Made by a program: the position numbers and the translations under genes
Shown here: positions 4,077 to 64,000 of the stretch, piece after piece
Layout: each line of letters opens with the position of its first letter
How positions within the stretch are numbered: the stretch's first letter is position 1
The notes under the pieces: generated by a model
Database searches by the model: none
Told to the model about the DNA's origin: nothing
The model's input: the letters and a program-made list of their open reading frames with translations, nothing else
Assembly (NCBI GenBank): GCA_963575745.1
Contig: CAUYUJ010000037.1
Coordinates: 124,001 to 188,000 of the forward strand
Reading direction: 5' to 3'
DNA from: Prorocentrum cordatum
Lineage: Eukaryota
Length of the DNA: 64,000 bases

Positions 4077-4104
4077 CGCGCGCTTTCGCCCCACCCTCCC
4101 GCTC

Positions 4105-7200: not shown

Positions 7201-7895
7201 CGCAAAATCCTCGCTGGGACCCCCCCCACCACCCCCCCTGACCCAGCCAGCCTCCCGAGGCCTCTGGGCATATGTTTTTCGTAAGTTTGAAAGGCCCCCC
7301 AACGGAGCAAAATCTTCGCCGGGACCCCCCCGACCCCTCCTGACACAGGCAGTCTCCTGAGGCTTCTGGGCCGAAGTTTTCCTAGGTTTGAAAGACCCCC
7401 CACTCAGCAAAATCCTCGCGGGAACTCCCCCGACTCCCCCTGACATATCCATCCTCCTGAGGCCTCTCAGCATAAGTTGTTCGTGGATGGTCGACCCCCG
7501 CTGAGCCAAATCCTCGACGGAGCCTCCCCGACTCCCCCTGACACAGCCAGCCTCCTGAGACCTCTGGGCACTCGGTTTCCGCAGGTTTGCACAACCTCTT
7601 AACTCAGCAAAATCCTCGCCGGACCCCCTCGACCCCCCCTGACACAGCCAGCCTGCTGAGGCCTCTGGGCACGGGCTTTCCGTAGGTTTGAAGGACTCCC
7701 CACTCAGCGCCAGCAACGAGCCAGCAACGAGGCCAGCAAAATCCTCACCGGGACCCACCCCACCCCCCTGACACACCCAGCCTCCACAGGCCTCTGGGCA
7801 TAAGTTTATCGTAGCACCCCGGAGACTTCAGAGGTTTGAAGGACCCCCCGCTTAACAAAATCCTCACCAGGAGCCCCCCGCCACCCCTGACACGC
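4251..7895. repeat. ~100-bp GC-rich tandem satellite, right part
   Basis: Same unit as 1-1565. Strongly garbled between ~4925 and 5520 and more diverged toward 7.9 kb. Confidence 0.93.
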
Positions 7896-13760: not shown

Positions 13761-13838
13761 GCGGCTCCACCATAGGAGCTCAGAAACGCGGTGCGATCCG
13801 TCAGAACAATGATCATCATATTGTCATGGTTATGTGGA

Positions 13839-14460: not shown

Positions 14461-15023
14461 CAAAGGGGAGTGTCCGAAATGCAACGGAGAATCATGAATC
14501 CAGGCGGCGAGGCTCAGTCTTGGAAGTCTCAACGGAACCCTGTCGTACTTGGAAAGACACCCCGACAACGAATGAATAAAACATACGTCGCCTCAATCGG
14601 GGTCGGCGGCAGAGGCGGCAGCCTTTACATTCCAACGCAAGGGCGCTATTCTTCAGTAAATTGCAAGCAAGTCTCCAGCGAGAGCGCGACTCCAGAGCGC
14701 AGGAGGAGCGATTCCTGAATAAATCGTAAGGAGGTCCCAAGCGAGAGCGCGACTCTTGAGTAAAATGCGAGGAAGTCTCGGGCGGGAGCGGGGGTCCTGG
14801 CTAAATTGAAAGGAAGTCTCAAGCGAGAGCCGTTGTTGTTGTAACCCGGGGGCCAGGGGGCCAGTCTGAGCAGGAAGACTTTCCTTGACGAAAAACTAGG
14901 TGCGAGCCCCGGGGGAGCACTTCAATTAAAAAAATCCATGTGCACCGGTGGGGGGGATCAACAATAATTATTCTTCAAGAATGAGAGTTCAACAACAACA
15001 AGAACAAATAAAAATTAAAAATG

Positions 15024-15120
<97 letters not shown>
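15024..15120 (+). repeat. 97-nt poly(A) tract
   Basis: Uninterrupted A run preceded by CAA/AAT-rich sequence. Confidence 0.95.
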
Positions 15121-44785: not shown

Positions 44786-45633
44786 TCAATGTGCAATAAG
44801 ACGAAAAAAGAGAGAGAGAGAAAGAGAGAGAGAGAAAGAGAGACAGAGACAGAGGAAGGGCGAGAGAGAGAGAGAAATGAAAAAAAGAAGAGAGAAGGGG
44901 GGGGAAGAAGGAAAAAAAAAAAAAATGACTTGAGCAACACGTGATAGGAGGAGGAATCATGAATATGCGAAACATGGGAGAGCAGGAGGGGCCCCAAAAA
45001 AGGACGCGAGGAAGAAGCAAGACAGGACGGGAGGGCATTTCTGTAAGTCGAATTCCCACGCCCGTAGCTGCAGCATTACTATCGGAATACTTGGGGGAAC
45101 CGACGTCGCATAAAACCCGAAAAATACATCTTTGCGAGGTTTCAAGATGACATTCGAAAACGCTTCCTCCTTGTCATCTGAACACTGACTGGGCGCGTTA
45201 AGAGCTCTACGAGGGCCCCGGCGGTAACCTGGTTGACGGTTTACCGCCAGCTCCCAGCATTTGAGGAAGCTCTTTTCGCGTAGCATTCTAAGCACTACTT
45301 CGCGCGTCACGAGCTCTACGAGGTCCCCGGCGGCAACCTGGTCGACGGTTTACCCCTGGCCCCCAGTACCTAGAGCTCTTCGACATGGGCGAGCTGGAGG
45401 AATTCCGGCGCGGGGTGGAGCAAGTGACTTGTAGGGCTTCCCTAAGAGCGAAGCGGCGAAGCTAGAGAGTAATTCCGCCGCGCTGGGGGGCTAGTGACTC
45501 ATAGAGCTTCCCTAAGAGCGAAGCGGCGAAGCCAGAGAGTAATTCCGGCGCGCCGGGGGGCTAGTTGGCCCAAAAAACCTCGACGGACGTCTGTCTTTTT
45601 TGAGCATATGTAAAATCAGTTAGGGCTCTAATG

Positions 45634-46098
45634 TACCTCGTAGAGCTCTTCGGCATCGATGAGCTAGAGGAATTCCGGCGTGGGCCACCCGGCCCGGACG
45701 GACAATGTGTCAACCTGGGGGCGGTTGTTTGAAGATTGTGGAAGAATTGAGGGTTCGTTAGGGGGAACTGTCGGCGAGCGGGATGCATTTCCCGAGATGA
45801 TAATGGATTTGCGAACTTAACTGACGCAGCAAACTCGCTACACAGCTCTAGTCTTCCCTGCGTCTGTAGCAGGTCAAGGCGCGTCAGACCGTCGAATTCT
45901 CAGATCCGCAGCGGTAGCATTACTATCAAACGACTTGACAGAACCAACACCCTATAACACTAAGAAAGTACATGTTTGCAGTTTTGAACAGATATTTGGA
46001 ATAGATTTCTCGTCGTATTCTGAGCACTACTCCGCGCATCAAGAGCTCTACGAGGGCCCTGGCGGCAACCTGGTTGACGGTTCACCGCCGGCCCCCAG
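45634..46098 (+). mobile_element. Subfamily 1 element, complete copy
   Basis: 5' TACCTCGTAGAGCTC ... GAGCTCTACGAGG + hairpin + CCCCCAG, followed by a T run. Confidence 0.7.
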
Positions 46099-47807
46099 TT
46101 TTTTCCTCCAGCACAGCAATCGAGAGTAAATCATCAGGAGCACGAGTCTCAAGTATCAGGAAGCCCGAACTCGGTCTGCTTCCATAGCTGGAACCACGAA
46201 ACTATTCGTGCTCTGCCCATTATTGGAGATAGTGCTCATTTCCTTAACTCGAGCCGAAGATGAGCTATAGAGCTCTTCGGCACAGCAACCGAAGGGAATC
46301 ATCAGAACGCTAGTTTCAAGTATATGGATGCACGAACTCGGTGTGCTACTAGAGCTTGTACCAAAAAAACTAATCGTACTCTGCAAGTTTGATGATGATT
46401 TTTTCAACTTAACTCGAGGTGCAGATTAGTTACAGAGCTGTACGGCACATCAATCGGAAGGATATCATCAGGAGCACTAGTCTCAGGTATCTAGATGTCC
46501 GAACTCGGTCTGCTACCAGCTGGAACCAAAACACTACTCGTACTCTGCATTGTTTAGAGACGCTGGAGGTTCCCTCTACTATATTGGAGCTGCAGGTTGG
46601 CACCGACAAGCATTTTTCGAAGCAGAAGCAATGTGTGCAGTTTGGGCCGGTTGGACGAACACTGCAAGAGATTTAACCATTCGTGCTGAGAACTCGTATT
46701 TTTCGCACCTGTAGTGGGTGACGCCGCGTCTGCCAGTCAAATACCCAGGTTCGTAGCTGCAGTATTACTATCGAAACACTTGGGGGAACCGACGACGTAT
46801 AAAATCGAAAAATAAAGTTTGCGAGTTTTCAAACTGACATTGGAGAACGCTCTCTCCTCGTAGTCTGAGCTCTGATTTGCATGTTGAGAGCTCCACGAGG
46901 GCCCCTGCGGCAACCTGGTTGACGGTCTACCGCCGGCTCCCAGTTAGCACGCCCGGCCCGGGCAGAGCTCTTCGGCATCGATAAGCAAGGGGAATTCCCG
47001 CGCGAGCTGAAGCTAGTTGGCCCATCTTGGCAGGTGTCGTTGGCGTTCTTAACTCAATTCGAGCTACAGATGAGCTACAGAGCCATTCGGCAGAGCAATC
47101 AAAAGAAACGTATCAGGCGCGTTAGTCTCAAGTATATAGATGCCCGAACTCGGTGTGCTACCAGAGCCGGAACCAAAACATTCTTTGTAGTACGCAAATT
47201 GTCTTAAGAGATGATGACTAGTTCCTTAACTTCACTCGAGCTACAGATGAACTACAGAGCTGCACGGCACAGCGCTCGCAAGAATAGCATCAGGAACGCT
47301 AGTCTCAAGTATCCAGACTGGGGGCGGTAAACCGCCAACCTTGGTTACCGCTGGGAACTCGTAGAGCTTCCCTGCGATATACATCACGGCACGCGGGCGC
47401 GGCAATCTCACATTCCGAGCGCGCCAGGGCGCGGTTTCATGGACGAGGACGCGGAGGAGGAGCGAGGAGAGGAAGGAAGTGAAGGAGGCTGAGGAAGAGA
47501 AGGACGTGGAGAAGAAGAGGCAGGACAAGAAGGATGAGCGGGAGAAGGAGAAAGAACGGATGACGAACAGGGCGACGATGAGGGGGCGGAGGAGGAGGAG
47601 ACGAAGGAGGAGACAGATAAGAAGAAGGAGGAGAAAGAGGCGAAGGAACAGATGGAGGCGGAAGAGCAGGAGCACGAAGAGGAGGATGAGGAGAAAGAGG
47701 AGGAGGAGAAAGACGAGGAGAAGGAGGAGGAGCAGAAGGAGGGGCAGGAGGAGGAGGGGGGAGGTGGAGGAGGAGATGGAGGAGGAGGAGAAGAAAAAAA
47801 GGAGTGG

Positions 47808-48497
47808 TCGACCACGACCACGGCCACGGCCACGGCCACGGCCACGGCCACGGCCACGGCCACGCCACGGCCACGGCCACGACCACGACCACGGCCACGG
47901 CCACGACCACGGCCACGGAAACAGCCACGGCACGGCGACGGCGACGGCGACGGCCACGGCGACGGCCACGGCGACGGCGACGGCGACGGCGACGGCCACG
48001 GCCACGAAAACGGCCACGAAAACGGCCACGAAAAAAGGCCACGGCCACGGCCACGGCCACGGCCACGGCCACGGCCACGGCCACGGCCACGGCATGGCCA
48101 CGGCCACGACACGGCCACGCCCACGGCCACGCCCACGGCCACGCCCACGGCCACGGCCACGGCCACGGCCACGGCCACGGCCACAGCCACGGCCACGGCC
48201 ACGACCACGACCACGGCCACGGCCACGGCCACGGCCACGGCCAAAGCCACGGCCACGGCCACGGCCATTGCCACGGACACGGCCACCGCCGGCTACCGCC
48301 ACGGCCACCGCCACGGCCACGGCCACGGCCACGCCCACAGCCACCCCGGCGGCCACGGCCACGGCATCGCCACGGCCACGGCCAGGGCCACGGCCACGGC
48401 CGTCACGGCCACCGCCACGGCCACGACCACGACCACGGCCACGGCCCCGGCCCCGGCCACGGCCACGACCACGGCCACGACCCCTAGAGCCACGGCC
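47808..48497 (+). repeat. (GGCCAC)n hexamer minisatellite
   Basis: Directly visible; related copy at 49031-49390. Confidence 0.95.
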
Positions 48498-49030
48498 AGC
48501 CGGCAGAGAATTCGAAAATCACGTTTCGCAACTCAGCCCTAGCGTGCCTCGCGAAGTTCTCTTGATTCCTATCCATAATAACTCTCTAGCTCATCTGCAG
48601 CTCGAGTTAAGTGAAGGAACTCATTTATTTCGAAAAAAAACGATCGAATGCTAATATCTGTGCGGATATAGTTGAACCAGTAGACTGAATTCAGGCTCTA
48701 GAACTGACAAACGTGCCTAATTATTCAAAATCGGTTTCTGTAAGTATCAGCTCTTTAGCTTTCTGAAATCTCGAGTGATGTTTGAAAACCGTAAAGGCGG
48801 ACTCGAACACACAATCGGTTCCAGCAAGGGTTTTGTAGTAAATTTCACTGGCAGACACGTCATTACGCACTACAGATTGGAAAAATCTGTTTTTGACACA
48901 AATTTTCAAATTTTGCCCAAAAATTGAAAAACCTACCCCAAGTCGTCACATTCTCTCTTCTGGTCGGGTCGCCCAACTAGCTCCACCCCGCGCCGGAATT
49001 CCTCTAGCTCATCGATGCCGAAGAGCTCTC

Positions 49031-49085
49031 CACGACCACGACTACGGCCACGGCCACGACCACGGCCACGGAAACAGCCACGGCA

Positions 49086-49119
<34 letters not shown>

Positions 49120-49390
49120 CACGGCGACGGCGACGGCGACGGCGACGGCCACGGCCACGAAAACGGTCACGGCCACGGCCACGGCCACGTCCACGAAACG
49201 GCCACGCCCACGGGCACGCCCACGGCCACGGCCACGGCCACGGCCACGGCCACGGCCACGGCCACGGCCACGGCCACGGCCGGCCACGACCACGACCACG
49301 GCCACGGCCACGGCCACGGCCACGGCCACGGCCAAAGCCACGGCTACTGCCACGGCCACGACGGACACGGCCACCGCCAGCTACCGGCAC
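49031..49390 (+). repeat. (GGCCAC)n hexamer minisatellite, second copy
   Basis: Shares rare variants with 47808-48497 (GGAAACAGCCAC, GGCCAAAGCCAC, GGACACGGCCACCGCC). Confidence 0.95.
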
Positions 49391-49792
49391 GGCCTCAGAT
49401 TGTCCGTCCGGGCCGGCTGGGCGAACTAGCTCCACCCCGCGCCGGAATTCCCCTAGCTCATCGATGCCGAAGAGCTCTACGAGGTACTAGCTCCACCCCG
49501 CGCTGGAATTCCTCTAGCTCATCGATGCCGAAGAGCTCTACGAGGTACCAGGTTTGCGCCCAGCTCCTGAGAGCTACTTGGTAGCGCCCAAACCCCGGAG
49601 AGCAAAGAGGAACTCACACCAGAGAGGTTGCCTGCCGAGCGCTGGACAGCTCTCCTACAGCGCTTCTGAAGCACTGCCTGGCACGCTTCCACGCGTGCCT
49701 GCACGCGTGCAGGCACGCGTGGGCGCCTGCCGGAAGCGCTCCCGGACCAGCTGCTGGGTCAAACAACTCCCTGCGGGGATTCTGGAGCGCAA

Positions 49793-50194
49793 CTGGGAAC
49801 CGGCGGTGAACCGTCAACCTGGTTACCGCTGGGGGCCTCGTGGAGCTTTTTTCCCTTGCGCAGGGCTGCTCAGAACACATGGAAAGAGCTTCATCAAGCG
49901 TTAGTTTAAACTCGAAAAATACATGTTTGTTGGTTTTCATCGAAAGTCGGTTCCGCCAAGTGTTTTGATAGTAATACTGCAGCTACGGACAGGAGAATTT
50001 CACTGGCAGACGCGGCACAACCCACTACAGGTGCGAAAAATACCGTTTCTCGGAACGAATGCTCAAATATCTCACAATGTTTTCCCAACCGGCCCAAAGT
50101 TCACACATTGTCCGTCGGGGCCGGGTCGGCCAACTAGCTGCACCCCGCGCCGGAGTTCCTCTAGCTCATCGATGCCGAAGAGCTCTACGAAGTA
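49793..50194 (-). mobile_element. Subfamily 1 element
   Basis: On the plus strand: CTGGG + hairpin + CCTCGTGGAGCT ... GAGCTCTACGAAGTA. Confidence 0.65.
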
Positions 50195-50269
50195 AGATGG
50201 GCTGCTGGCAGGCACCACCACCGCCCGGCTTCTAATCTAAAACCATATTTCTCTCAGAGAGCTCTCCGG

Positions 50270-52450
50270 GAATAGAGCTTTAGATTAGAAGCTGGATGGT
50301 GGTGGTGCCTGCCAGCAGCCCACCTGCGCCGCTCCACGATCCCCGCAGCGACTCGCCGGTCCCGGCAGCGGGTCCGGGAGCGCTTCCGGCACGCGTCCAA
50401 GCGTGCCTGCACGCGTGCAGGCACGCGTCGAAGCGTGCCTTGCAGCGCCTCAGAAGCGCTTCAGAGGAGCGCCCTCTTCGCTCTCAGGGTAACTCGTAGA
50501 GCTTCCCTTAGCTAGTTGCTGGAAGGTCAAGAGTAATACCTCGTAGAGCTTGTCGGCATCGATGAGCTAGAGGAATTCTGGCGTGGGGTGGAGCTAGTTC
50601 CCGGAGAGCTCACTGAGAGCTAGAGGGTTTTGGATTTGAAGCTGGACGGTCGTGGTGCCTGCCAGCAGCCCATCTTCGCCGCTCCAGAGTCCTCGCAGCA
50701 ACTCGTTTGTCCCGGCGGCCCGTCCGGGAGCGTTTCCGGCTTGCGTCCACGCGCGCCTGCACGCGTGCAGGCTCGCATGGAAGCGTGCTTGGCAGTGCTT
50801 CAGAAGCGCTTCAGGAGAGTCCCCAGAGCTCCCGAGGAAAGATTTCCCGTTCCCGAGGGTCTTTTCGCTTTCGGGGTTTTTCCCGGGGAGCCCCCTGGGA
50901 GCTATAGGGTTTCAGATGAAAAGCCAGACGTACTGGTGCCCGCCAGCAGCCTACCTCCGCCGCTCCACGATCCTCGCAGCAACTCGCTCGTCCCGGCAGC
51001 CCGTCCGGGAGCGCTTCTGGCACGCGTCCACGCGTGCCTGCACGCGAGCTGGCACGCGTTGAAGCGTGCGTGGCAGCGCTTCCGAAGCGCTTCAGAGGAG
51101 CGCCCTCTTCGCTCTCCGGGTTTTACCTCGTGGAGCTCTTTGTCATCGATGAGCTAGAGGAATTCCGGCGCGGGGTGGAGCTAGTTCCCGGGGAGCTCTC
51201 TGGGGGCTACAGAGTGTTAGATTGGAAGCTGGACGGTGGTGGTGCCTGCCAGCAGCTCCCCCACGGCGCTCCACGTTCGTTGCAGCGAGTTGCCCGGGGT
51301 CGCAGCGGGTCCGGGAGCGGTTCCGGCACGCGTCCACGCGTGCCCGCACGCGTGCAGGCACGCATGGAGGCGTGCCCGGCAGAGCTCCAGAAGCGCTTCA
51401 GAAGCGCTTCCACTTCGCTCTCCGGGTTTCGGACGCTACCAAGTACCTTGTAGAGCTCTTCGGCAAGATGAGTTAAGAGGAATACCTCGTAGAGCTCCTT
51501 GGCAAGATTCCCGGAGAGCTCTCTGAGAGCTAGAAGGTTTTAGATTAGAAGCCAGACGGTGGTGGTGCCTGCCAGCAGCCCATCTTCGCCGCTCCAGAGT
51601 CTTCGCAGCGACTCGTCCAGGGTCGCAGCGGGTCCGGGAGCGCTTCCGGCACGCGTCCACGCCTGCCTGGACGCGTGTAGGCACGCGTGGAAGCGTGCTT
51701 GGCAGTGCTTCAGAACCGCTTCGGGAGAGCCCCCAGAGCTCCCTGGGAAAGACTGGGCCGTCAACCAGGTAACCGCCGGGGACCTCGTAGAGCTCTTACC
51801 TCGTAGAGCTTTTCGGCATCGATGAGCTAGAGGAATTCCGGCGCGGGGTGGAGCTAGTTGGTAGACCCGGCCCAGGCGGACAAAGTGTTAACTTTTGGTC
51901 GGTTTTTCCCGGAGGGCTCTCTGAGAGCTTGAGGGTTTTAGATTAGAGACCGGGCGGTGGTGGTGCCCGCCAGCAGCCCATCTCCGCCGCTCCACGATCC
52001 CCGCAGCGCCTCGCCCGTCCCGGCAGCTGGTCCGGGAGCGCTTCCGGCAAGCGTCGACGCGTGCCTGCACGCGTGCAGGCACGCGTGGAAGCGTTCCTGA
52101 CAGCGCTTCGGAAGCGCTGCAGGGAGGCCCCCCAGAGCTCTCCAGGAAAGATTCTGTCCCCAAGAGTCTCTTCGCTGACCGGGTTTTGGACGCTACCAAG
52201 TTCCCGGAGAGCTCTCTGAGAGCTAGAGGGCTTTAGATTAGAAGCCGGACGGTGGTGGTGCCCGCCAGCAGCCCATCTCCGCCGCTCCACGATCCCCGCA
52301 GCACCTCGCCTGTCCCGGCAGCGGGTCCAGGGGCGCTTTCCACGCGTGCCTGCACGCGTGCAGGCACGCGTGGAAGCGTTCCTGGCAGCGCTTCAGACGC
52401 GCTGCCCCCAGCTCTCTACGAAAGATTTTCCCTCCCCAACGGTCTCTTCG
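50270..52450 (+). repeat. Tandem ~300-bp module containing a long perfect palindrome
   Basis: GAGAGCTAGAGGGTTTTAGATTAGAAGCC...GGTGGTGCCTGCCAGCAGCCC...ACGCGTGCCTGCACGCGTGCAGGCACGCGT repeated about 7 times; further copies at ~53.4 and 55.4 kb. Confidence 0.85.
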
Positions 52451-53651
52451 CTCTGGGTTTTGGACGGCAGCTACAGAGCTGATACGCACAGAAAACGATG
52501 CAGAATAATCAGGCGCGTTGGTCTGTTGCATCCAGAGTTCTGAACTCGGTCTGCTACTAGGTCACCGAAACTGTTCTTATCGTTCGAGTCATCTTGAGAG
52601 GTGCTGCCGGTTTTCGCACGTAACTCGGGCTGTAGGACAGATACAGAGCTGATACACGCAGAGAATGATTCGAAATTATCATGCGCGTTCGTCTGTTACA
52701 TCTAGAGGTCCCAACTGGGCTTGCTACTCGGGCTAGGTCCGCAAAACTATTCGTATTCTTCGAGTCATCTTGACAGATGTTGTCCATTTTCTGTATTGAA
52801 CTCGGGCTGTAGGAGAGCTACAGAGCTGGTGCGTACAGAAACCGATCGAGAATCAGGAGCGTTCGTCTGTTGCATCGAGAGGTCTGAACTCGGTCTGCTA
52901 CCCGAGCTAGGTTCACAAAATTATTCGTATTCGACCGATATTTTCTTCCAAATGATGGTGAATTGCTTAGCTGAACTCGAGCGGCCGAAAAATCAGAAGG
53001 AAATCATGAGGCGTGAAGTTCTCCCTAATGGTATTTTCTACACGCTGCAGATGAGATAGAACTGTTGAGCACAGCGATGGGATATCACTAGACGCCGGAG
53101 ATCAGTCTGCTAGCAGCCCGGGCTGAAAAACTATTCGTTCTCTGCTAATACTTGGGACATCATGCATGGTCAGGAAGCTCTACGAGTCCCCCGGCGGTAA
53201 GAAAGGTTGCCGGTTTACCGCCGGCGCCCAGTTGGACGCTACCAAGTGAGGTAAGACGCATTCGGGTGCAGAATGGAACTAGTAATTCGTAGAGCTTTGC
53301 TAAGCTAGTTGCTGGAAGCTTAAGAGTACCTCGCAGAGCTCTTTGGCATCGATGAGCTAGAGGAATTCCGGTGCGGGGTGGAGCTAGTTGGTCGACCCGA
53401 CCAGAAAGGACAATGTTCCCCGAGAGCTCTCTGAAAGCTACAGGGTTTAAGATACGAGGCCGCACGGTGGTGGTGCAAGCCAGCAGCCCATCTTCGCCGC
53501 TCCAGAATCCCCGCAGGGCTTGTTCGCCCCGGCACCCTGTCTGGGGTCGCTTCAGGCACTGTTCCACGCGAGCCTGCGCGTGGTGGGAGAATACCTAGTG
53601 GCGCGTGAGAAGCGCGTCAGGGGGGCTTCCCAGCGCCTGTCAGGAAAAGTG

Positions 53652-54160
53652 CACCTCGTAGAGCTCTTCGGCAAGATGAGCTACGAGGAATTCGGGCGCA
53701 GGATGGAGCTAGTTGGCCGACCCGACCTTAAGAGACAATGTGATAACTTGGGGTCGGTTTTTTTTGAATCTTTGTGCAAAATTCGAAAATTCGTTTTAAG
53801 AACTGGTGATTTTCCCACGTGTAGTGGGTGATGCCGCGTCTGCCAGTAAAATTCTCAGGTCCGTAGATGGAATATGACTATCAAAACACTTGAGGGAACA
53901 GACTGTGTTCCGAGTCATCCTGACACGCGTTGGCGGTTTTCGGGCGCGTTCTTTCCTCGCATCGAGAGGTCTGAACTCGGTCTGGTACTCGAGCTAGGTC
54001 CACGAAACGAAGATGCAAAATGGTAAAATACTTATTTTTCGAACTTGTTTCTTCACGCTTGAGAAAGCTTTTTTCGTGCGTTCCGAGCAGCGCCGCGCGA
54101 AACAGAGCTCTACGAGGCTCCCGGCGGTTACCTTTCTAACGGTTTACCGCCGGATCCCAG
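53652..54160 (+). mobile_element. Subfamily 1 element
   Basis: CACCTCGTAGAGCTC ... GAGCTCTACGAGGCTC + hairpin + ATCCCAG. Confidence 0.65.
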
Positions 54161-56621
54161 TCCAGAGCTGCCTCTTCGCTATCTGGGTTTTGGACGCTAC
54201 CAAGTGGCCGACCCGGCCCAGGCGGACAATATGACAACTTTTTGTCAGTTCTGCTAAGATTTGAAAGATATTTGACAATTGATTTTGAGAAATCAGATTT
54301 TTGCGCCAAGCATACGCATATAAGCTTCGTACCTCGTAGATCTCGTCGGCAACGATGAGCTAAAGGAATTCTGGGTCGAAAAAATAATAAACAAGTAAAT
54401 GAAAAATCTGTCGAATACAATAGATTTGCGGACCCAACTCAAGTAGCAGACTAAGTTCAGGCTCTAGATGCTTGCGACGCACGCGCCTGATGATTATCGA
54501 TCGATTACATGGGCGTAACACCTTTGTAGCCCCCCCCCCACAGCTCGAGTTAAGTACAGAAACCCAACAGGACCTGTCAAGATGACTCGAAGAAGACGAA
54601 CTGTTTCGCGGATCTAGCTCGAGACGCAAACCGATTTCAGATCTTTCGACACAACAGACGAACGCGCCTTACGATTCTCGATCGATTCGTCTGCGTTCCA
54701 GCTCAGTAGCACTCCTACAGCCCGAGTGAAGTACAGGAACCGACAGCGTCTGTCAAGATCACTCGTATAATACGAACAGTTTCGCGGATCTAGCTCGAGT
54801 AGCAAGCCGAGCTCAGACCTCTTGGGGGAACAGACGAACGTGCCTGATGATTCTGATTCGGTTTCTGTAAGCATCAGCGCTGTAGCTTCCTAAATCTCGA
54901 GTTGAGTAAAGAAAACCGTCAACGCGTGTCAAGATGACTCGAAACGGTCGACGGTTCCCTCCAGTCCTTTGATAATAATATTGCAGCTACGGACCTGATA
55001 ATTTCACAGCCGCGCGCGCAATTACCCACTACAGCTGGGAAACATACTTGCTCTTGAAACGAATTTTCAAATGTACACAAAGATAGAAAAACCGGCCCGA
55101 AGTCATCACATTGTCTCTTAAGGTCGGGTCGGCCAACTAGCTCCACTCTGCGCCCGAATTCCTCTTGGCTCCTCTTGCCGGAGAGCTCTACGAGGTAAGA
55201 GGCACTTGCAGAAACACAGCACACGCACGTGGCTCAGCATGCGCGGAGACGTTGGAAATCTTGCGAGACAGAGCTCTCGGGCCGCTGGAAAGCTTCCCCA
55301 CGTTCCTGTATGCTCTGGACAAGCTGTCCTCCACATCTCCGGACGCTCCCCTGCAGCGCTTCTGAAGCGCTGCCAGGAACGCTTCCACGCGTGCCTGCAC
55401 GCAAGCTATTTTCCCGGAGAGCTCTCTGAGAGCTAGAGGGTTTTAGATTAGAAGCCCGACGGTGGTGGCGCCCGCAAGGAGCCCATCTCCGCCGCTCCAC
55501 GATCCCCGCAGCGAGTTGCCGGTGCCGGCAGCGGGTTCGGGGGCGCTTCCAGCACGCATCCACGGGGGCCTACAAGCGTGCAGGCACGCTTGGAAGCGTT
55601 CCCGGCAGCGCTTCAGCAGCGCTTCTGGGGAGCCCCCCAGCGCTCTCCAGGAAAGATTTCCCGTTCCAGAGGTTCTTCGCTCTCCGGGTTTATTTCCCGG
55701 AGAGCTCTCTGAGAGCTACAGGGTTTTAGACGGGGAACCGACGGTAAACCGTCAACCAGGTTTCCGCCGGGACCCTCGTAGAGCTCTTTTCTCACACGGC
55801 GCTTCTCGTTAAGAATGAAGAAAACGTCTTGATCAAAACCGACATACTCGAAAAATCACGTTTATCTGTTTTTATACAACGTCGGTTCCCCCATGTGTTT
55901 TGATAGTAATACTGCAGCTACGGACCTGAAAACTTTACTGGCAGACGCAGCATAACCCACTACAGGTGGGAAAAATCTGGCTTCTCAAAATGAGTTGTCA
56001 AATATCTCTCAAATCACAGCAAAACCGACCCAAAGTCACCACTTTGTCTCGTAAGGCCGGGTCGACCAACTAGCTCCAGCCCGCGCGGGAATTCCTCTAG
56101 CTCATCGATGGTACCGGCGGTAAACCGTCAACCAGATTACCGCCGGAGCCCTCGTAGAGCTCTTTTCTCGCACGGAGCTGCTCGGCACACATGCAGGTAG
56201 AGTCTGGAAGAAGAGCCAAAAAAACTCGAATCAACACGTTTTTTTGTTTTTATCCAAAGACGGTTCCGCCAAGTGTTTTGATAGTAACACTGCACCTGCA
56301 GACCTGAGAATTTGACTGGCGAACGCGAAATAACCCACTGCAGGTGCGAACAATACCAGATCTCAAAACGAATGTTCAAATCTCTCACAAAATTCGTCCA
56401 ACCGACCCAAAGTTCGCACATTGTCCGTCGGGGCCGGGTCGGCGAACTAGCTGCACCCCGCGCCCGAATTCCTCTAGCTCATCGATGCCAAGGAGCTCTA
56501 CGAGGTATGCCGAAGAGCTCTACGAGGTATTAGAAGCCGGGCGGTGGTGGTGCCTGCAGCCCATCTTCGCCGCTGCAGAATCCCCCAGAGAGTTGTAACT
56601 CGCAGAGCTTCCCTTAGCTAG

Positions 56622-57011
56622 TACCTCGTCGAGCTCTTCGTTATCAATGAGCTAGAAGAATTCTGGCGCGGGGTGGAGCTAGTTGGTCGATCCGGCCAGA
56701 AAGAAGATGTGACAACTTGGGGTCGGTTTTGCTAAGATTTGAAGGATATTTAACAATTCATTTTCAAAAACAAGATTTTTCGCACCTGTAGACGACTGTG
56801 AGGACCTCTGCGTCTTAATATGAGCTCTGCAGCTGGACTTTTACTATCAAAGCACTTGGCGAAACCAACTTTATGTCGACATGAACATAATGAATGTTCA
56901 TTTTTTTGAGAAATTATCGAGAAGCTCTGCCCTTCGACTCTCAGCACTATCACGCGTGGAAGGAGCTCTACGCCGGCGGTGACCAGGTTGACGGTTCACC
57001 GCCGGCGCCAG
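56622..57011 (+). mobile_element. Subfamily 1 element
   Basis: TACCTCGTCGAGCTC ... GAGCTCTACG + hairpin + CGCCAG. Confidence 0.65.
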
Positions 57012-58120
57012 TTGCTGGAAGCTTAAGAGTAATTCCGGGGCGCTGGAGAGCTAGTTGACAAGAAAAATATCGACGGACCGTCGGTTGAAACTTTTGTTCT
57101 CGAAACTCAAAAATTCGTTCGAGCTCTAGTATTTTTTTCTGACCACATTCGATCTTATTCCCGCTCGCCATCTTGATCTTAGCCCGATCGGGTATCTTTT
57201 ACTGCTAAAAAGCGTTGCGGCGGGATTGGCCGTTTCGAGTCATCTTGACACGCGTTAACCGTTCTTTGTACTTAACCCGAGTTATAGAGGAGCTACAGAG
57301 CAGATGCTCGCAGAAACCGATTCATAATTAGCAGGCGCGTTCGTCAGTTGCATATAGAGGTCTGAGATCGGTCTGCTGCTCGAGCTAGGTCCACGAAACC
57401 GAGCTAAGTCGCGAAACTATTCGTATTCTACGATCTTCCTTGGCGGATACTGTCAATTTTCGGTGCTGTAGGAGAGCTACAGTTCTAATACGCATAAGTA
57501 ACTATTCAGAATCATCGCGCGCGTCGGTCAGCTGCATCCAGAGGTCTGATTTTGGTCTGCTACTCGAGCTAGGTATGGGAAACTATTCGCGTTATTCGAG
57601 TGATCGTGACAGGTTCTGTAGGTTTTGAATACTTAACTCGGGCTGTAGAAACAATTTAGAGCTGGCACCCATAGACACTAATTCAGAACAGGTGCGCTTG
57701 TCTGTTCCATCGAGAGGTCTGAACTAGGTCTGCTACTAGCCAGGTCCGCAAAAACATTCGAGTTATATGAACAGGGGCTGTTGGTGTTTTGTACGTAACT
57801 CGAGCTTCAGCACAGCTACAGAGCTTGTACACACATATAATTGATTCAGAATCACAGGCGCGTTCAGCTGAAGCATCTAGAGCTCTGCTAGGTCACAAAC
57901 CGATTCGTATTGGACCAATTTTTCTCCGAAGCGACGGTGGATTTCTTTACACAACTTGAGAGCTCTTTGGCACATAAATGAAATGGAAATCATAAGGCGC
58001 CGCTTGGCTGGATCTGTTCAGCACAACAATGGGAAAGGAATTATCAGCGGCAATAGTATATAGACGCCTGAGATCAGTCTGCTATCAGCGCTCGGGCTAA
58101 AGAAACATTCGTGCCCTGCA

Positions 58121-59343
58121 CTGGGCGCCGGCGGTAAACCGTCAACCTTTCTTACCGCCGGGGGACTCGTAGAGCTTCCTGACAACATATAATGTCGAAA
58201 ACAATTACACAGAAAAAATATTTTTTCAGCCCAAGCAATTTCAGACCTCTCGGATGCAACAGCCGAACGCCCCCGATGCTTCTGGATTGTCTTCTGTACG
58301 AGCTCTGTAGCTCTCCTACAGCCCGAGTTACGTGCGTAAATCGACAGCACCTCTCAAGATGACTCGAACAATACGAATAGTTTGGCAAACCTAGCTCGAG
58401 TATCAGACCGAGTTCAGACCTCTGCATGCGACAGGCGGACGCGTCTGATGTCTCTGCATCGATTCCTGTGATTACCAGCCTGCAGCCCCCCCTACGGCCC
58501 GAGTTAAGTGCAGGAAACCGACAGCACCTCTCAGGATGACTCGAACAATACGAATAGTTTCGCGGACCTAAGTCGGGCAGCAGACAGAGTTCGGAGCTCT
58601 GGATTCGAAAGGCGGACGCGCCTGATGTCTCCGAATCGATTCCAGTGATTACCAGCCATGCAGCCCCCCTACAGCCCGAGTTAAGTGCAGAGAACCGACA
58701 GCAGCATCTCTCAAGATGACTCGAACAATACGAATAGTTTCGCGATTCTAGATCGGGCAGCAGACCGAGTTCAGAGCTCTGGATTCAACAGACAACGGCC
58801 ACTGATAATTCTGAATTGGATTCTGTACGTATCAGCTCTGTAGCTGTCCTGTAGCTCGAGTTAAGTACAGAAAACCGAGAGCGTCTGTCAAGATGACTCG
58901 AATAATACGAATAGGTTTGCGGACCTAGCTCGGCTAGCAGACCGAGTTCAGACCTCTGGGTTCAACAGGCGAACGCGCCTGATCATTCTGAATCGATTAG
59001 CTGTGCTTACCAGCTCTGTAGCTGTCCTAAAGCTCGAGTTATCTTGAGAAAACCGTCATTGCGTGACAAGATGACCCGAAACGGGCGATCCCGCCGCAGT
59101 GCTTCTTGGCAGTAAAAGGTACCGGATCGAGCTGAGATCTAGATGGCGAGCGGGAATAAGATCGAATATCACGGAAAAATACTAGAGCTCTAACGAATGG
59201 TTGAATTTCGAGAACAAAATTTTCAACCAACCAAAAATCACCAAAAGGTCCGTCGAGATTTTTCTTGCCAACTAGCTCTCCAGCGCCCCGGAATTACTCT
59301 TAAGCTTCCAGCAATAACTTGCTGAGGGAAGCTCTACGAGTTA
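58121..59343 (-). mobile_element. Subfamily 2 element (1.2 kb) carrying ~178-bp tandem monomers; first of several tandem copies
   Basis: Minus strand: TAACTCGTAGAGCTTCC ... GGAAGCTCTACGAGT + hairpin + CGCCCAG. Further copies start at 59351, 60521, 60930 and ~62548. Confidence 0.7.
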
Positions 59344-62300
59344 CCCTGCACTGGGCGCCGGCGGTAAACCGTCAACCTTTCTTACCGCCGGGGGACTCGT
59401 AGAGCTTCCTGACAATATATAATATGGAAAAGAATTGTAGAGAACGAATAGTTTTTCAGACCTTTCGATGCAACAGCCGAACGCCCCTGATTTTGGATTC
59501 TCTTCTATACGAGCTCTGTAGCTTCTACAGCCCGAGTTACGTGCGTAAATCGATAGCACATTTCAAGATGACTCGAACAATACGAATAGATCAACAAACC
59601 TAGCTCGAGTATCAGACCAGGTTCAGAGCTCTGAATGCAATAGTGGGACGCGTCTGATGTCCCCGAATCGATTCCTGTGATTACCAGCCCTGCAGCCATC
59701 CTACAGCCCGAGTTAAGTGCAGAAAACCGACAGCGACTCTCAAGATGACTCGAACAATACGAATAGTTTCGCGGACCTAGCTCGGGCAGCAGACCGAGTT
59801 CCGAGCTCTGGATTCGACAGAAGGACGCACCTCCTATCTCCGAATCGATCCCTGAGATTACGAGCCCTTAGTTTCCCTACAGCCTGAGTTCAGTACAGCA
59901 AACCGACAGCATCTCTCAAGATGACACGAACAATACAAACAGATTCGCAATTCTAGATCGGGCACCAGACCGAGTTCAGAGCTCTGGATTCAATGGACAC
60001 CGCGACTGATGATTATGAATCAGTTTCTGTAAGTATCAGCTCTGTAGCTGTCGTATAGCTCGAGTTAAGTACAAGAAACCGAGAGCGTCTGTCAAGATGA
60101 CTCGAATAATACGAATAGGTTTGCGCATCTAGCTCGGCTAGCAGATCGGGTTCAGACCTCTGGATGGAACAGGCGAACGCGCCTAATCATTCTGCATCGA
60201 TTAGCTGTGCTTACCAGCTGTTTAGCTGTCCTAAAGCTGGAGTTATCTTGAGAAAACCGTCATTGCGTGACAAGATGGCCCGAAACGGGCGATCGCGCCG
60301 CAGTGCTTTTTGGCAGTAATATCTACCCGGTCGATAAGAGATCAATGCGCCGAGCGGGAATAAGATCGAATATCACGGGAAAAAACACTTAGAGCTCTAA
60401 TGAATATTTGGAGAGAACAAAATTTTCAACCGACCAAAAGTCACCAAAAGCTTCGTCGAGATTTTTCTTGCCAACTAGCTCTCCAGCGCCCCGGAATTAC
60501 TCTTAAGCTTCCAGCAACAACTGGGCGCAGGCGATAAACCGTCAACCTTTCTTACCGCCGGGGGACTCGTAGAGCTTCCTAACAATATATATATAATGAC
60601 GAAGAAAAATTGCAGAGAAATAAAAGTTTTTCAGCCCAAGCGATTTCAGACCTTTCGATACAACAGTCAAACGCCCCTGATTTTGGATTCTCTTCTATAC
60701 GAGCTCTGTAGCTCTCTTACAGCCCGAGTTACGTGCGAAAATCGACAGCACCTCTCAAGATGTCTCGAACAATACGAATAGTTCAACAAACCTAGCTCGA
60801 GTATCAGACTGAGTTCAGACCTCTGAATGCAATAGTGAGACGCGTCTGTAACGCCGAATCGATTTCTGTGATTACCAGCCCTGCAGCCCCCCTGCAGCCC
60901 GAGTGAAGTGCAGAAGCTTCCAGCAACAACTGGGCGCCGGCGGTAAACCGTCAACCTTGGTTACCGCCGGGGGACTCGTAGAGCTTCCTCACAGTAACTC
61001 ATGTGGAAAAAGATTGTTGAGAACGAATAATTTTTCAGCCCAAGCGATCTCAGACCTCTCGATGCAACAGCCGAACGCCCCGGATGCTTCTGCATTGTCT
61101 TCTGTACGGGCTCTGAAGCTCTCCTACAGCCCGAGTTACGTGCGTGAATCGACAGCACCTTTCAAGATGACTCGAACAATACGAATAGTTCGGCAAACCT
61201 AGCTCGAGTATCAGACCGAGTTCAGACCTCTGCATGCGACAGGCGGACGCGTCTGATGTCTCTGAATCGATTCCTGTGATTACCAGCCCTGCAGCCCCCC
61301 CCACAGCCCGAGTTAAGTGCAGGAAACCCACAGCACCTCTCAGGATGACTCGAACAATACGGTTAGTTTCGCAGACCTAGTCAGTAGACAGAGTTCGGAG
61401 CTCTGGATTCGAACGGCGGACGCGCCTGCTGTCTCCGAATCGATTCCAGTGATTACCAGACATGCAGCCCCCCTACAGCTCGAGTTAAGTGCAGAGAACC
61501 GACAGCATCTCTCAAGATGACTCGAACAATACGAATAATTTCGCGGTTCTAGATCGGGCAGCAGACCGAGTTCAGAGCTCTGGATTCAACAGACAACGGC
61601 CACTGATGCTTCTGAATCGAATTCAGCTCTGTAGCTGTCATATAGCTCGAGGTAAGTACCGAAAACCGAGAGCGTCTGTCAAGATGACTCGAATAATACC
61701 AATAGGTTTACGGACCTAGCTTGGATAGCAGACCGAGTTCAGACCTCTGGGTTCAACAGGCGAACGCGCCTGATCATTCTGAATCGATTAGCTGTGCTTA
61801 CCAGCTCTGTAGCTCTTCTATAGCTCGAGTTATGTTCAGAAAACCGCCACCGCCTGTCAAGATCACTCGAAACGGCCGATCCCGCCGGAGTGCTTTTTGG
61901 CAGTAAAAGGTACCCGATCGAGCTGAGATCAAGATCGCGAGCGGGAATAAGATCGAATATCACGGGAAAAAATACAAGAGCTCTAACGAATAGTTGAATT
62001 TCGAGAACTTGGCAGCGTTCAAAACCCGGAGAGCGAAGAGACCCTCGAGACAGGAAAAATGTTCTAGAGACCTCTGCCGGGCTCCCTTGAAGCGTTTCGA
62101 GAGCGCTGCCAAGTACGCTTCCATGCGTGCCTGCACGCGTGCAGGCACGCCTAAAGTGCTTCGAAAGCGCTGCCAGGTACGCGTCCATGCGCGCCTGCAC
62201 CCGTGCAGGCACGCGTCGACGCGTGCCAGAAACTCTCCAGGATTCGCTGCGACCCCAAACGAACTGGCGCGGGCGGTGAACCGTCAACCTCGTCACCGCC

Positions 62301-63400
62301 GGGAACCTCGTAGAGCTCCTTTGACGCGTAGGAGTGCTCAGAGTCGAAAGAGAGAGCTTCTGGAAGCATTTCTCGAAAAAGGGAAAAAAAGATTTTTTTC
62401 GTGTCGACATTAAGATGGTTCCGCCAAGTGTTTTGATAGTAAAAGTGCGCCTACGGAGCTCATACTAAGACAGAGAAGCCCTCATAGTCGTTTACAGGTG
62501 CGAAAAATCTGCTTTCACAAAATGAATTTTCAATTGGTAGCGTCCAACTGGGCGCCTGCGGGAAACCGTCAACCTTGGTTACCGCCGGGAGACTCGTAGA
62601 GCTTCCTAGCTCGACTTAAGTTGAGAAAACCAACAGCACCTACCAACATTCCGACTCATAGTGAATATGTTTTGACCTCTGAATGCGACAGGCGGACGCG
62701 TCTGATGTCTGCGAATCGACTCCTGTCATTACCAGCCCTCCAGCTCCCCTACAGCCGGAGTTATGTGCAGAAGACCGACAGCACCTCTCAGGATGACTCG
62801 AACAATACAGTAGTTTCGCAGACCTAATTCGGGCAGCAGACGGAGTTCCGAGCTCTTGATTCGACAGGCGGACGCGCCTGATGTCTTCGAATCGATTCAT
62901 GTGACCACCAGCACTGTAGCCCCCTCAGCGCGAGTTGAGTGAAGAAAACCGAGAGCACTTCTCAAGATGACTCGACCAATACGAATAGTTTCGCGATTCT
63001 AAATCGGGCAGCAGACCGAGTTCAGAGCTCTGGATTCGACAGACAAACGCAACTGATCATTCTGAATCGGTGTCTGTAAATATCAGCTCTGTAGCTGTCC
63101 TACAGCTCGAGTTAAGTACAGAAAATCGAGAGTTCCTGTCAAGATGACTCGAATAATACGAATAGGTTTGCGGACCTAGCTCGGCTAACAAACCGAGTTC
63201 AGACCTCTGGATTCAACAGGCGAACGCGCCTAATCATTCTACATCGATTAGCTGTGCTTACCAGCTGTTCTAAAGCTCGAGTTAAGTTCGGAAAACCGTC
63301 AGCGCGTATCAAGATGACTCAAAACGACCGATCCCGCCACAGTGCTTTCGATATTAATATTCACCCGATCGAGCTGAGATTAAGATGGCGCGCGGGAATA
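58240..63400. repeat. ~178-bp satellite-like monomers in ~1.2-kb higher-order units
   Basis: AGCCCGAGTT...TCAAGATGACTCGAACAATACGAATAG...AGACCGAGTTCAGA recurs at ~58320, 58497, 58673, 58853 and 59031. Reverse-oriented copies lie at 46.1-47.3, 52.5-53.1 and 57.2-58.1 kb. Confidence 0.9.
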
Positions 63401-63587
63401 AGATCGAATATCACGGGAAAAATACTAGAGCTCTAACGAATGTTCAAATTTTGAGAACATAATTTTCAACTGGACGCCGGCGGTAAACCGTCAACCTTTG
63501 TTACCGCCGGGGGACTCGTAGAGCTTCCTGACAACATGTAATGTCGAAGAAAATTACATAGAAAAAATTGTTTCTCAGCCCAAGCAA

Positions 63588-63984
63588 CTGGCGCCGGCGG
63601 TAAACCGTCAACCTGGTCACCGCCGGGAACCTCGTAGAGCTCCTAGCACGCGTAAGAGTGCTCAGCATCAAAAGAGAGGGCTTCTGGAAGCATTTCTCGA
63701 AAAAGAGAAACCATGATTTTGTCATGTCGACATAAAGATGGTTCCGCCAAGTGTTTTGATAGTAAAAGTGCATCTAGAGAGCTCATATTCAGACGCAGAG
63801 GCCCTCGAAGTCGTTTACAGGTGCGAAAAATCTGCACTCAAAATAAATTGTCAAATATCTTTCAAATATTCGCAGAACCACCGAAAAGTTGTCACATTGT
63901 CCGCCTCGGCCGGGTGGGCCAACTAGCTCCACCCCGCGCCGGAATTCCTCGTAGCTCATCGATGTCGAAGAGCTCTACGAGGCA
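63588..63984 (-). mobile_element. Subfamily 1 element, abutting the next copy head-to-tail
   Basis: CTGGCG + hairpin + CCTCGTAGAGCTC ... GAGCTCTACGAGGCA; CTGGGAACCGGCGGTA then starts at 63985. Confidence 0.7.
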
Positions 63985-64000
63985 CTGGGAACCGGCGGTA

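What the first reader, a model, noticed from the sequence alone, without database searches (positions are those of the whole stretch)
45045..64000. 19-kb nest of elements with co-varying asymmetric inverted repeats, a 3' hairpin and head-to-tail junctions
Seen: units start T(A)CCTCGTAGAGCTC and end GAGCTCTACGAGG + CCGGCGGTAA-loop-TTACCGCCGG + CCAG|T (e.g. 45634-46098, 53652-54160, 56622-57011, 63588-63984). A second subfamily changes both arms together (ACTCGTAGAGCTTCC / GGAAGCTCTACGAGT; 58121-59343), a compensatory pattern. Ends abut heads directly (CCAG|TACCT at ~45366; CCAG|TGCCTCG at 63985) and are nearly always followed by T. Two ends sit before the same TTGGACGCTACCAA site (53232 and ~62547). 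Established: a terminal IR, subterminal IR, 3' hairpin and T-rich target describe Helentron/Helitron2 non-autonomous elements. Inference: a rolling-circle family that inserts into itself and shuffles interchangeable cargo modules.
Basis: partly seen in the sequence, partly recalled or inferred. Interest (0 to 1): 0.7.

Follow-up and report, generated by a model that had tools for sequence, protein, structure and literature searches.

The report
Nest of decayed Helitron2-type transposons
The last 19 kb of the window is a pile-up of old, non-coding rolling-circle (Helitron2/Helentron-type) transposon copies that inserted into one another, an ordinary kind of repeat whose end structure is unusually easy to read here.

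Summary
Window 45.2-64 kb holds 20 copies of a 3' end and 25 copies of a 5' leader, and none lies in 1-45 kb. The 3' end is an inverted repeat, a 10-bp-stem hairpin, then CCAG followed by T. The 5' leader is T, the same inverted repeat, then a 5' hairpin.

At least three families share this plan with different repeat sequences:
- A: CCTCGTAGAGCTC.
- B, with a variant D: ACTCGTAGAGCTTCC.
- C: CCCGGAGAGC.

In the A and B/D leaders the first repeat base changes together with its hairpin partner in 23 of 23 cases. The complete copies show the same change in the 3' repeat. Four empty-site reconstructions show precise insertion next to T without target duplication, all into other copies of the same families.

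This matches the published definition of Helitron2/HLE2 non-autonomous elements. A decayed, 5'-truncated RepHel gene lies at 8034-13688 on the minus strand. Its full-length relatives carry DUF6570, a published HLE2 marker. It is not bounded by these ends, so the autonomous partner is unproven.

Copies are old (68-91% identical). Related copies occur in 6 metagenome contigs. Verdict: a new member of a known kind, of modest interest.

The parts
45634..46098 (+). Complete family A element (465 bp): 5' TACCTCGTAGAGCTC leader, 3' inverted repeat + hairpin + CCCAG, followed by T
45367..45565 (+). One A leader abutting the preceding 3' end (CCCAG|TACCT), then two D-type leaders (TGACT..GCTTCC) as a 70-bp direct repeat
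   Evidence: (period 70, 2.4 copies)
49419..49547 (-). Two A leaders in direct repeat (61-bp period); the second starts at the CTAG^T site of the first
49793..50194 (-). Complete A element (402 bp) inserted in a C element; joined flanks match uninterrupted C at 53469-53518 and 50652-50698
50490..50536 (+). B leader (5' hairpin part), uninterrupted; serves as the empty site for the A insertion at 56622
50598..52455 (+). Array of family C elements (about 300 bp; 5' T-CCCGGAGAGCTC, 3' GCTCTCCGGG-TTT-TGGACGCTACCAAG|T) interleaved with A leaders at 51124, 51444 and 51797
52468..53231 (+). B-type 174-bp satellite cargo and B 3' end (53172-53231), followed by the C 3' terminal piece at 53232-53246
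53652..54160 (+). Complete A element (509 bp; first base C instead of T) inside a C element
55730..56529 (-). Two A elements head to tail (56106-56507 and 55730-56104, junction partly deleted) plus a leader fragment at 56507-56529
56622..57011 (+). Complete A element (390 bp) inserted in a B leader: CTTAGCTAG[T..CCAG]TTGCTGG against the empty CTTAGCTAGTTGCTGG; no target duplication
58121..59343 (-). Complete family B element (1223 bp): leader TAACTCGTAGAGCTTCC, 177-bp satellite x4.6, 3' GGAAGCTCTACGAGT + hairpin + CGCCCAG; flanked on both sides by TGCAGGG
59351..62002 (-). Three further B copies head to tail, 5'-truncated or internally deleted (3' ends at 59351, 60521 and 60930)
62003..63587 (-). 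C copy (3' end at 62008), 5'-truncated A (3' end at 62264), C 3' piece (62534-62547), 5'-truncated B (3' end at 62548), B 3' fragment (3' end at 63470)
63588..64000 (-). Complete A element (63588-63984, 397 bp) whose 5' end abuts the 3' end of a further copy cut by the window end
8034..13688 (-). Decayed, 5'-truncated RepHel gene of HLE2 type (HUH, YxxxY and Walker A motifs kept; 7 frame switches, 3 stops). Not bounded by the nest's ends; link to the nest is inferred only

Best explanation
Window 45.2-64 kb is a nest of old, non-autonomous Helitron-like elements of the HLE2 (Helitron2/Helentron) type.

At least three families (A; B with variant D; C) share one plan. It runs: 5' T, a 10-15 nt inverted repeat starting 1-2 nt from the end, a 5' hairpin that uses that repeat, a non-coding body often carrying 170-180 bp satellite arrays, the complement of the repeat, a hairpin, then [C/A]AG followed by a T.

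Inferred mechanism, following the published Helitron2 model: a RepHel protein supplied in trans nicks one strand at the 5' end and unwinds it. The 3' end is marked by the hairpin and by pairing of the 3' repeat with the 5' repeat. The strand is released with its ends joined (..CAG-T-ACCTCG..) and is inserted next to a T without duplicating the target.

New copies landed preferentially in a few AG^T or T^T sites in the leaders and 3' ends of resident copies. This built the nest, the head-to-tail junctions and the doubled leaders.

Shown: the architecture, the covariation, precise insertion without duplication, and the presence of an HLE2-type RepHel relic in the same window.

Inferred: the rolling-circle steps, the nick position, and that a RepHel of this lineage is the partner.
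For: 1. Ends: there are 20 3' ends and 25 leaders, all in 45.2-64 kb, in consistent orientation. Nine nearest 5'/3' pairs lie 375-1223 bp apart.

2. Published Helitron2 features are met (PMC3627910 section 9; PMC11417382 passages). The 5' repeat starts 2 nt from the end. The 3' repeat sits directly upstream of a hairpin. The 5' hairpin includes the repeat (B -11.5 kcal/mol, z -4.15; A -7.9, z -1.4). The first base is T in 22 of 23 leaders.

3. Covariation: leader base 1 and its hairpin partner are C..G in 16 leaders and A..T in 7, with 0 of 23 mixed. The 3' repeat changes the same way: GAGCTCTACGAGG in A against GGAAGCTCTACGAGT in B. Family C has a different 10-nt repeat that is again complementary between its ends.

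4. Flanks: T follows 21 of 22 CAG termini against a background of 0.11. For C, 10 of 10 5' ends are preceded by TT and 8 of 8 3' ends are followed by T.

5. Empty sites: four reconstructions show no target duplication.
- A 56622-57011 sits in a B leader.
- A 50194-49793 sits in C.
- A composite, 51124 or 50490 to 53231, sits in a C 3' end.
- 45425-46943 sits in an A leader.

6. Ends are better conserved than interiors. In A the 5' end is 0.82 and the 3' end 0.75, against 0.50 for the interior. In B the 3' end is 0.95 against 0.63.

7. A RepHel relic lies at 8034-13688 (minus). It is 41-47% identical to proteins of 1546-3338 aa. Of the 7 I scanned, 5 have DUF6570 + Helitron_like_N + PIF1. DUF6570 is reported as an HLE2 marker (PMC11417382 passages).

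8. The same 3' end, each time followed by T, lies in 6 of the 20 metagenome loci returned. The other 14 are chance matches in GC-rich, bacterial-looking DNA.
Against: - No copy with these ends encloses a RepHel gene. The relic at 8-13.7 kb has none of these ends near it.
- The only complete B copy is flanked on both sides by TGCAGGG. This could be a 7-bp target duplication or a dimer that carried flank along.
- Mixed ends exist. The complete element in L005 has an A-type 5' repeat and a 3' repeat that is B-like in its distal part. The composite 51124-53231 would pair an A 5' end with a B 3' end. Either full complementarity is not required, or these are not single elements.
- The 3' hairpin is conserved in sequence rather than covarying, with only one compensatory AT to GC change in 23 copies.
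- Single-hairpin energies are mostly unremarkable. The family C 3' hairpin has z +0.59.
- All copies are old: A 68-87% and B 80-91% identical. There is no sign of present activity.
- Every copy seen lies inside other copies, so no isolated insertion in unique DNA was examined.
- Counts of flanks are not independent, because some junctions were copied by later duplication.
Confidence: 0.8

Rival explanations
1. The block is a complex satellite or segmental duplication. The 'ends' would be conserved parts of a higher-order tandem repeat spread by unequal crossing-over, not by transposition.
For: Many units lie head to tail. Arrays of 61, 70 and 167-177 bp period are present. All copies in the window sit in one 19-kb block. 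TGCAGGG is repeated with the B unit.
Against: The same ends occur on both strands and in at least 10 different flanking contexts. Four joined-flank reconstructions restore uninterrupted sequence of another element. Ends are better conserved than interiors. The ends also occur in other contexts in 6 metagenome contigs.
Confidence: 0.07
2. The elements belong to another class of DNA transposon. It could be a cut-and-paste element with target duplications, or an element moved by a single-domain HUH enzyme of the IS200/IS605 kind rather than by a RepHel.
For: The 7-bp TGCAGGG flanks the complete B copy. There are hairpins at both ends, and insertion occurs 3' of a short motif resembling the element's own junction: AG before the 5' T in 10 of 23 leaders against a background of 0.05. 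The comparison with IS608 is recalled, not tested.
Against: The inverted repeat is terminal at one end only. Four reconstructions show no duplication. No transposase of another class was found: 69 ORFs of 14-44 kb and 15 long ORFs gave no Pfam family above threshold. The one transposon gene in the window is a RepHel.
Confidence: 0.07
3. The units are genes for a structured RNA, or a retroposed SINE-like family.
For: Conserved hairpins and a conserved non-coding body shared between the window and the metagenome copies.
Against: No Rfam family reaches its gathering score in the window. The permissive search of 45-64 kb gave only sub-threshold miRNA-like hairpins. No tRNA was found. The copies have no poly-A tails, and they insert precisely without duplication.
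Confidence: 0.02

Closest known systems
Helitron2 non-autonomous elements (Helitron-1N1_CRe, CRe-1/2/3 of Chlamydomonas and others; Bao and Jurka 2013, PMC3627910; abstract, passages and section 9 read)
   Same: - Asymmetric terminal inverted repeats, with the 5' one 0-2 nt from the end and the 3' one just upstream of a hairpin.
- A 5' hairpin that uses the repeat.
- A 5' T.
- Compensatory changes between related families.
- That paper also reports variable 7-19 bp target duplications for some copies, which could match the TGCAGGG pair here.
   Different: - Here the 3' repeat ends about 43 nt from the terminus, against the 20-30 nt described.
- The end sequences are unrelated as far as I could see.
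- No autonomous partner is linked here.
- The host is unknown.
HINEs / DINE-1 (non-autonomous Helentrons; Thomas et al. 2014, PMC4067079; passages read)
   Same: - Subterminal inverted repeats of about 13 bp.
- A 3' stem-loop.
- T-rich or TT insertion sites.
- Central microsatellites or tandem repeats that can fill half of the element.
- Accumulation in repeat-rich regions.
   Different: - Helentron partners encode an endonuclease domain. None of the 7 relatives of the window's RepHel relic that I scanned has one.
- The repeats here are not themselves palindromic.
HelenXT233 of Xenopus (HELIANO, PMC11417382; passages read)
   Same: An HLE2 family with two left terminal sequences in direct repeat. 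The doubled leaders at 45425-45565, at 49419-49547 and in L001/L009 look the same.
   Different: It is an animal family with a known autonomous copy. There is no sequence relation.
IS200/IS605 family, e.g. IS608 (recalled, not tested here)
   Same: Single-strand HUH transposition guided by subterminal hairpins, with insertion 3' of a short motif and no duplication. It works like this only in a broad sense.
   Different: It is bacterial, uses a single-domain Y1 enzyme and has no helicase. No such gene was seen here.

Membership tests
HLE2 / Helitron2-type non-autonomous element | Short (8-16 nt) inverted repeats placed asymmetrically: 5' one 0-2 nt from the end, 3' one subterminal | tested here: met
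   A: CCTCGTAGAGCTC(TT). B: ACTCGTAGAGCTTCC. C: CCCGGAGAGC. Each starts 1-2 nt after the 5' T and recurs as its complement upstream of the 3' hairpin.
HLE2 / Helitron2-type non-autonomous element | [quoted passage not shown] | tested here: met
   A 10-bp stem CCGGCGGTAA/TTACCGCCGG lies 2-3 nt after the repeat in 23 of 23 copies collected. Family C has only a 4-bp stem, with z +0.59.
HLE2 / Helitron2-type non-autonomous element | 5' hairpin involving the 5' repeat (Bao and Jurka) | tested here: met
   Folds. Partner base covaries in 23 of 23 leaders. It is weak for family C.
HLE2 / Helitron2-type non-autonomous element | Insertion between T and T, no target duplication | tested here: met
   Four reconstructions show no duplication. 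T flanks are seen in 22 of 23 leaders and 21 of 22 3' ends. One T cannot be assigned to either element or target. One B copy has a 7-bp flanking repeat.
HLE2 / Helitron2-type non-autonomous element | An autonomous copy with the same terminal sequences encoding RepHel | tested here: inconclusive
   An HLE2-type RepHel relic lies at 8034-13688 but without these ends. No whole genome is held. Scans of viral and prokaryote collections were empty.
Helentron in the strict sense | RepHel with a C-terminal AP-endonuclease domain | tested here: not met
   0 of 7 full-length relatives of the relic have an Exo_endo_phos domain. The relic's C-terminus is Cys-rich with a sub-threshold Stc1 match. This applies only if this lineage is the partner.
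Canonical Helitron (HLE1) | 5' TC, 3' CTRR, insertion between A and T, no terminal inverted repeats | tested here: not met
   The ends are T[A/G][C/A]CTCG.. and ..CCAG or ..CAAG. They have inverted repeats and T flanks.
Cut-and-paste MITE | Symmetric terminal inverted repeats and a fixed-length target duplication | tested here: not met
   The 3' repeat lies about 43 nt inside the element. Four reconstructions show no duplication.

The most novel reading that the evidence does not exclude
The family may target itself by junction mimicry. The preferred landing sites all read AG^T or T^T, like the element's own joined ends (..CAG^T-ACCTCG..). These sites are:
- CTAG^TTGG at the end of the leader;
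- CTAG^TTGC in the B hairpin loop;
- AAGAG^TAATTC after the 5' hairpin;
- GGGTTT^TGGACGC before the C hairpin.

The Rep enzyme would then re-cut resident copies at pseudo-ends. That would produce nests, doubled leaders and 5'/3' chimeras between families.

The three-way complementarity (5' repeat, its hairpin partner, 3' repeat) would act as the switch that marks the true end. If so, this would be a natural dissection of how HLE2 ends are recognised.
Probability: 0.2. Interest if true: 0.55.

Novelty: new member of a known kind. Interest (0 to 1): 0.3.

Why it matters
The finding explains a 19-kb stretch that would otherwise be annotated as unclassified repeat and satellite. It adds families A, B/D and C to the HLE2 group in an unidentified GC-rich eukaryote that also turns up in aquatic metagenome assemblies.

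The three families, side by side, give a clear natural example of the three-way complementarity proposed for Helitron2 ends. They also show satellite arrays carried inside such elements. Neither point is new in kind.

Tried and rejected
- Whole genome: none is held, so ends could not be paired genome-wide.
- Earlier findings: three look-ups returned nothing.
- Sequencing runs: 24 runs were listed. The best holders had 0.23 and 0.20 of the sampled words, and the rest had small shares in aquatic and other metagenomes. No RNA holder was listed. None was laid, so I draw nothing from them.
Empty sites in other individuals and circle junctions could not be examined.
- Metagenome scan with the 3' end pattern: 6 of 20 loci are true copies, all on contigs of 1.4-2.2 kb. 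None is coding.
- Viral contigs: the DNA pattern gave 0, and the RepHel alignment gave 177 pattern matches with 0 confirmed.
- Prokaryote genome contigs: the RepHel alignment gave 29 pattern matches with 0 confirmed, and the hairpin pattern gave 0.
- Pfam on 15 long ORFs and 69 ORFs of 14-44 kb gave no family above threshold. One sub-threshold SR-25 match appeared.
- Protein atlas and the second protein search (best 46-55% identity, no organism names) did not identify the host.
- Rfam at gathering threshold gave 0. The permissive search gave 7 sub-threshold matches that I regard as chance. No tRNA was found.
- A paper search for the four end motifs gave only unrelated listings such as primers (listing seen only). 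I found no printed description of these ends in that library.
- I looked for covariation in the 3' hairpin and found almost none. The stem is simply conserved.
- Many rows of the joined-flank search are trivial matches caused by repeats. I kept only the four that restore an uninterrupted element.


Full report
**Observation.**
The window is GC-rich, repeat-rich eukaryote-like DNA. No whole genome is held for it.

- CCTCGTAGAGCTC (up to 1 mismatch) occurs 28 times against 0.07 expected.
- CCGGCGGTAA occurs 33 times against 4.81 expected.
- All but one match of each lie in 45.2-64 kb.

A regex for the full 3' end finds 16 copies in the window, and 15 are followed by T.

Profiles of both ends were built from the window's copies and six metagenome copies. 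They find 20 3' ends (E<1e-10) and 25 5' leaders (E<1e-6). All lie in 45.2-64 kb and none in 1-45 kb. A sequence-blind search for 'inverted repeat + perfect hairpin + AGT' also finds nothing in the first 45 kb.

**Anatomy.**
Three families share one plan.
- Family A is 390-509 bp. It starts TACCTCGTAGAGCTCTTCGGCATCGATGAGCTAGAGGAATTCC. It ends GAGCTCTACGAGG, 3 nt, CCGGCGGTAA, a 13-nt loop, TTACCGCCGG, 3-4 nt, CAG.
- Family B has one complete copy of 1223 bp at 58121-59343 (minus). It starts TAACTCGTAGAGCTTCC..GGAAGCTTAAGAGTAATTCC and ends GGAAGCTCTACGAGT plus the same hairpin. It carries 4.6 units of a 177-bp satellite.
- Variant D has TGACTCG.. leaders. It occurs at 45425-45565 and in loci L001 and L009.
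It starts T-CCCGGAGAGCTC and ends GCTCTCCGGG-TTT-TGGACGCTACCAAG.
- For family C, 10 of 10 5' ends are preceded by TT and 8 of 8 3' ends are followed by T.

**Covariation.**
The 5' repeat folds back on a downstream partner to make a 5' hairpin (B -11.5 kcal/mol, z -4.15; A -7.9, z -1.4; D -6.7, z -0.85; C weak).

One search printed 26 rows. I dropped three: two chance matches and one 3' repeat read on the other strand. Among the remaining 23 leaders, the first repeat base and its hairpin partner are C..G in 16 and A..T in 7. None is mixed.

The distal repeat bases also differ between A (..GAGCTC, paired with GAGCT) and B (..AGCTTCC, paired with GGAAGCT). The 3' repeats change in the same way.

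So three segments keep complementarity: the 5' repeat, its hairpin partner and the 3' repeat. This is the arrangement that Bao and Jurka describe and use in their model (PMC3627910 section 9).

The 3' hairpin is conserved rather than covarying, with one AT to GC double change in 23 copies.

**Insertion behaviour.**
I joined the flanks of candidate elements and searched for the joined sequence. Four cases restore an uninterrupted element.
- A 56622-57011 sits in a B leader. The filled site is CTTAGCTAG[T..CCAG]TTGCTGG. The empty sites are at 50491-50537, 59342-59290 and L014 918-969.
- A 50194-49793 (minus) sits in C. The empty sites are at 53469-53518 and 50652-50698.
- A composite with its left end at 51124 or 50490 and its right end at 53231 sits in the 3' end of a C copy, at GGGTTT^TGGACGC.
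- 45425-46943 sits in an A leader, at CTAG^TTGG.

None shows a target duplication. One T cannot be assigned to either the element or the target.

Flank counts:
- The first base is T in 22 of 23 leaders.
- The base before it is G in 16 of 23, against a background of 0.23.
- AG precedes it in 10 of 23, against a background of 0.05.
- T follows 21 of 22 CAG termini, against a background of 0.11.

These counts are not independent, because some junctions were duplicated later.

Head-to-tail junctions carry exactly one T between CAG and ACCTCG (45366), or TG at 63985. Leaders occur doubled at 45425-45565, at 49419-49547 and in L001/L009. A similar doubling is reported for a Xenopus HLE2 family (PMC11417382 passages).

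**Age.**
A copies are 68-87% identical and B copies 80-91%. Ends are better conserved than interiors. In A the 5' 62 nt score 0.82 and the 3' 56 nt 0.75, against 0.50 for the interior. In B the 3' 57 nt score 0.95 against 0.63. This is expected of non-autonomous elements that must keep the ends an enzyme recognises.

**A RepHel relic in the same window.**
The 714-aa ORF at 10438-12582 (minus) contains YACDYCTK and GVPGTGKS. Pfam finds PIF1 at 9957-10631 (E 1.7e-13). It also finds a sub-threshold Helitron_like_N match at 13101-13823 (E 0.019).

The ORF is 41-47% identical to proteins of 1546-3338 aa from metagenome and genome sources. tblastn with four of them tiles 13688-8034 on the minus strand in 8 pieces. 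There are 7 frame switches and 3 in-frame stops. The HUH, YxxxY and Walker A motifs are kept, and the first 450 residues or so are missing.

I scanned 7 relatives against Pfam:
- 5 show DUF6570, Helitron_like_N and PIF1.
- 2 lack the DUF6570 match.
- None has an endonuclease domain.

The HELIANO paper reports DUF6570 as a marker of the HLE2 clade (passages). So the genome once held an HLE2-type autonomous element. It is not bounded by the nest's ends, and I could not link the two.

**Relatives elsewhere.**
A scan of metagenome contigs with the 3' end pattern returned 20 loci. Six are true copies: L001, L002, L005, L009, L014 and L016. The other fourteen are chance matches in GC-rich coding-looking DNA.

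The six have the same hairpin, and each is followed by T. They carry homologous bodies and 180-bp satellites. Again they lie next to leaders or C-type elements.

L005 holds a complete element with an A-type 5' repeat. Its 3' repeat is A-like at the proximal base but B-like distally.

**Mechanism.**
Architecture, covariation, T flanks, absence of duplication and the RepHel relic together point to rolling-circle transposition of the HLE2 type. The nick sites, the joined-end intermediate and the role of the repeat pairing in marking the end are inferred from the published model. They are not shown here.

**Against.**
- No coding copy with these ends was found.
- TGCAGGG flanks the one complete B copy on both sides. 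Bao and Jurka report variable duplications for some Chlamydomonas Helitron2 copies (abstract). A dimer that carried flank along is equally possible.
- Mixed 5'/3' pairs exist.
- Most single hairpin energies are unremarkable.
- Every copy seen is nested in another.

**Comparison and verdict.**
The elements meet the structural definition of HLE2/Helitron2-type non-autonomous elements. They fail that of canonical Helitrons and of cut-and-paste MITEs. Calling them 'Helentron' in the strict sense is not supported, because the RepHel relatives lack an endonuclease domain.

I found no printed description of these end motifs in the library searched (listing only). This is a new member of a known kind, of modest interest.

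Noticed in passing
window 8034-13688 (-): Decayed, 5'-truncated RepHel gene of an unusually long lineage. Its relatives are 1546-3338 aa, with about 800 aa between the Rep and helicase domains and a Cys-rich C-terminus that gives a sub-threshold Stc1 match.
   Followed up: partly
window 1-7708: Arrays of a 101-bp C-rich satellite (1-1564, 4251-4962, 5525-6097, 6210-7708). They are interrupted by a roughly 2-kb segment present twice (inverted repeats at 1618 and 3632). The satellite starts directly downstream of the RepHel relic.
   Followed up: no
window 19350-21041: 77-bp satellite, about 15 plus 6.6 units.
   Followed up: no
window 15006-15120: Run of 115 A on the plus strand.
   Followed up: no
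window 47812-48479 and 49030-49379: Long (CCACGG)n microsatellites inside the nest, each next to an A leader that lacks its first 8 nt. Together they look like a duplicated composite.
   Followed up: no
window 50390-50440 and each further C copy: Family C carries a long internal palindrome, GCACGCGTCCACGCGTGCCTGCACGCGTGCAGGCACGCGTGGAAGCGTGC. It gives the sub-threshold miRNA-like Rfam matches.
   Followed up: no
window 14000-44000: No Pfam family in 69 ORFs of 110 aa or more. The stretch is rich in short-period repeats (CCAAGAGGCC-type at 34.3-35.8 kb, GGA/GAG runs).
   Followed up: partly
L001, L002, L009, L014: The 177-180 bp satellites carried by B/D elements share a conserved core (..AACTCGAGCTGTAGG.AGCTACAG..) between the window and the metagenome contigs, although the rest of the unit differs.
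   Followed up: no
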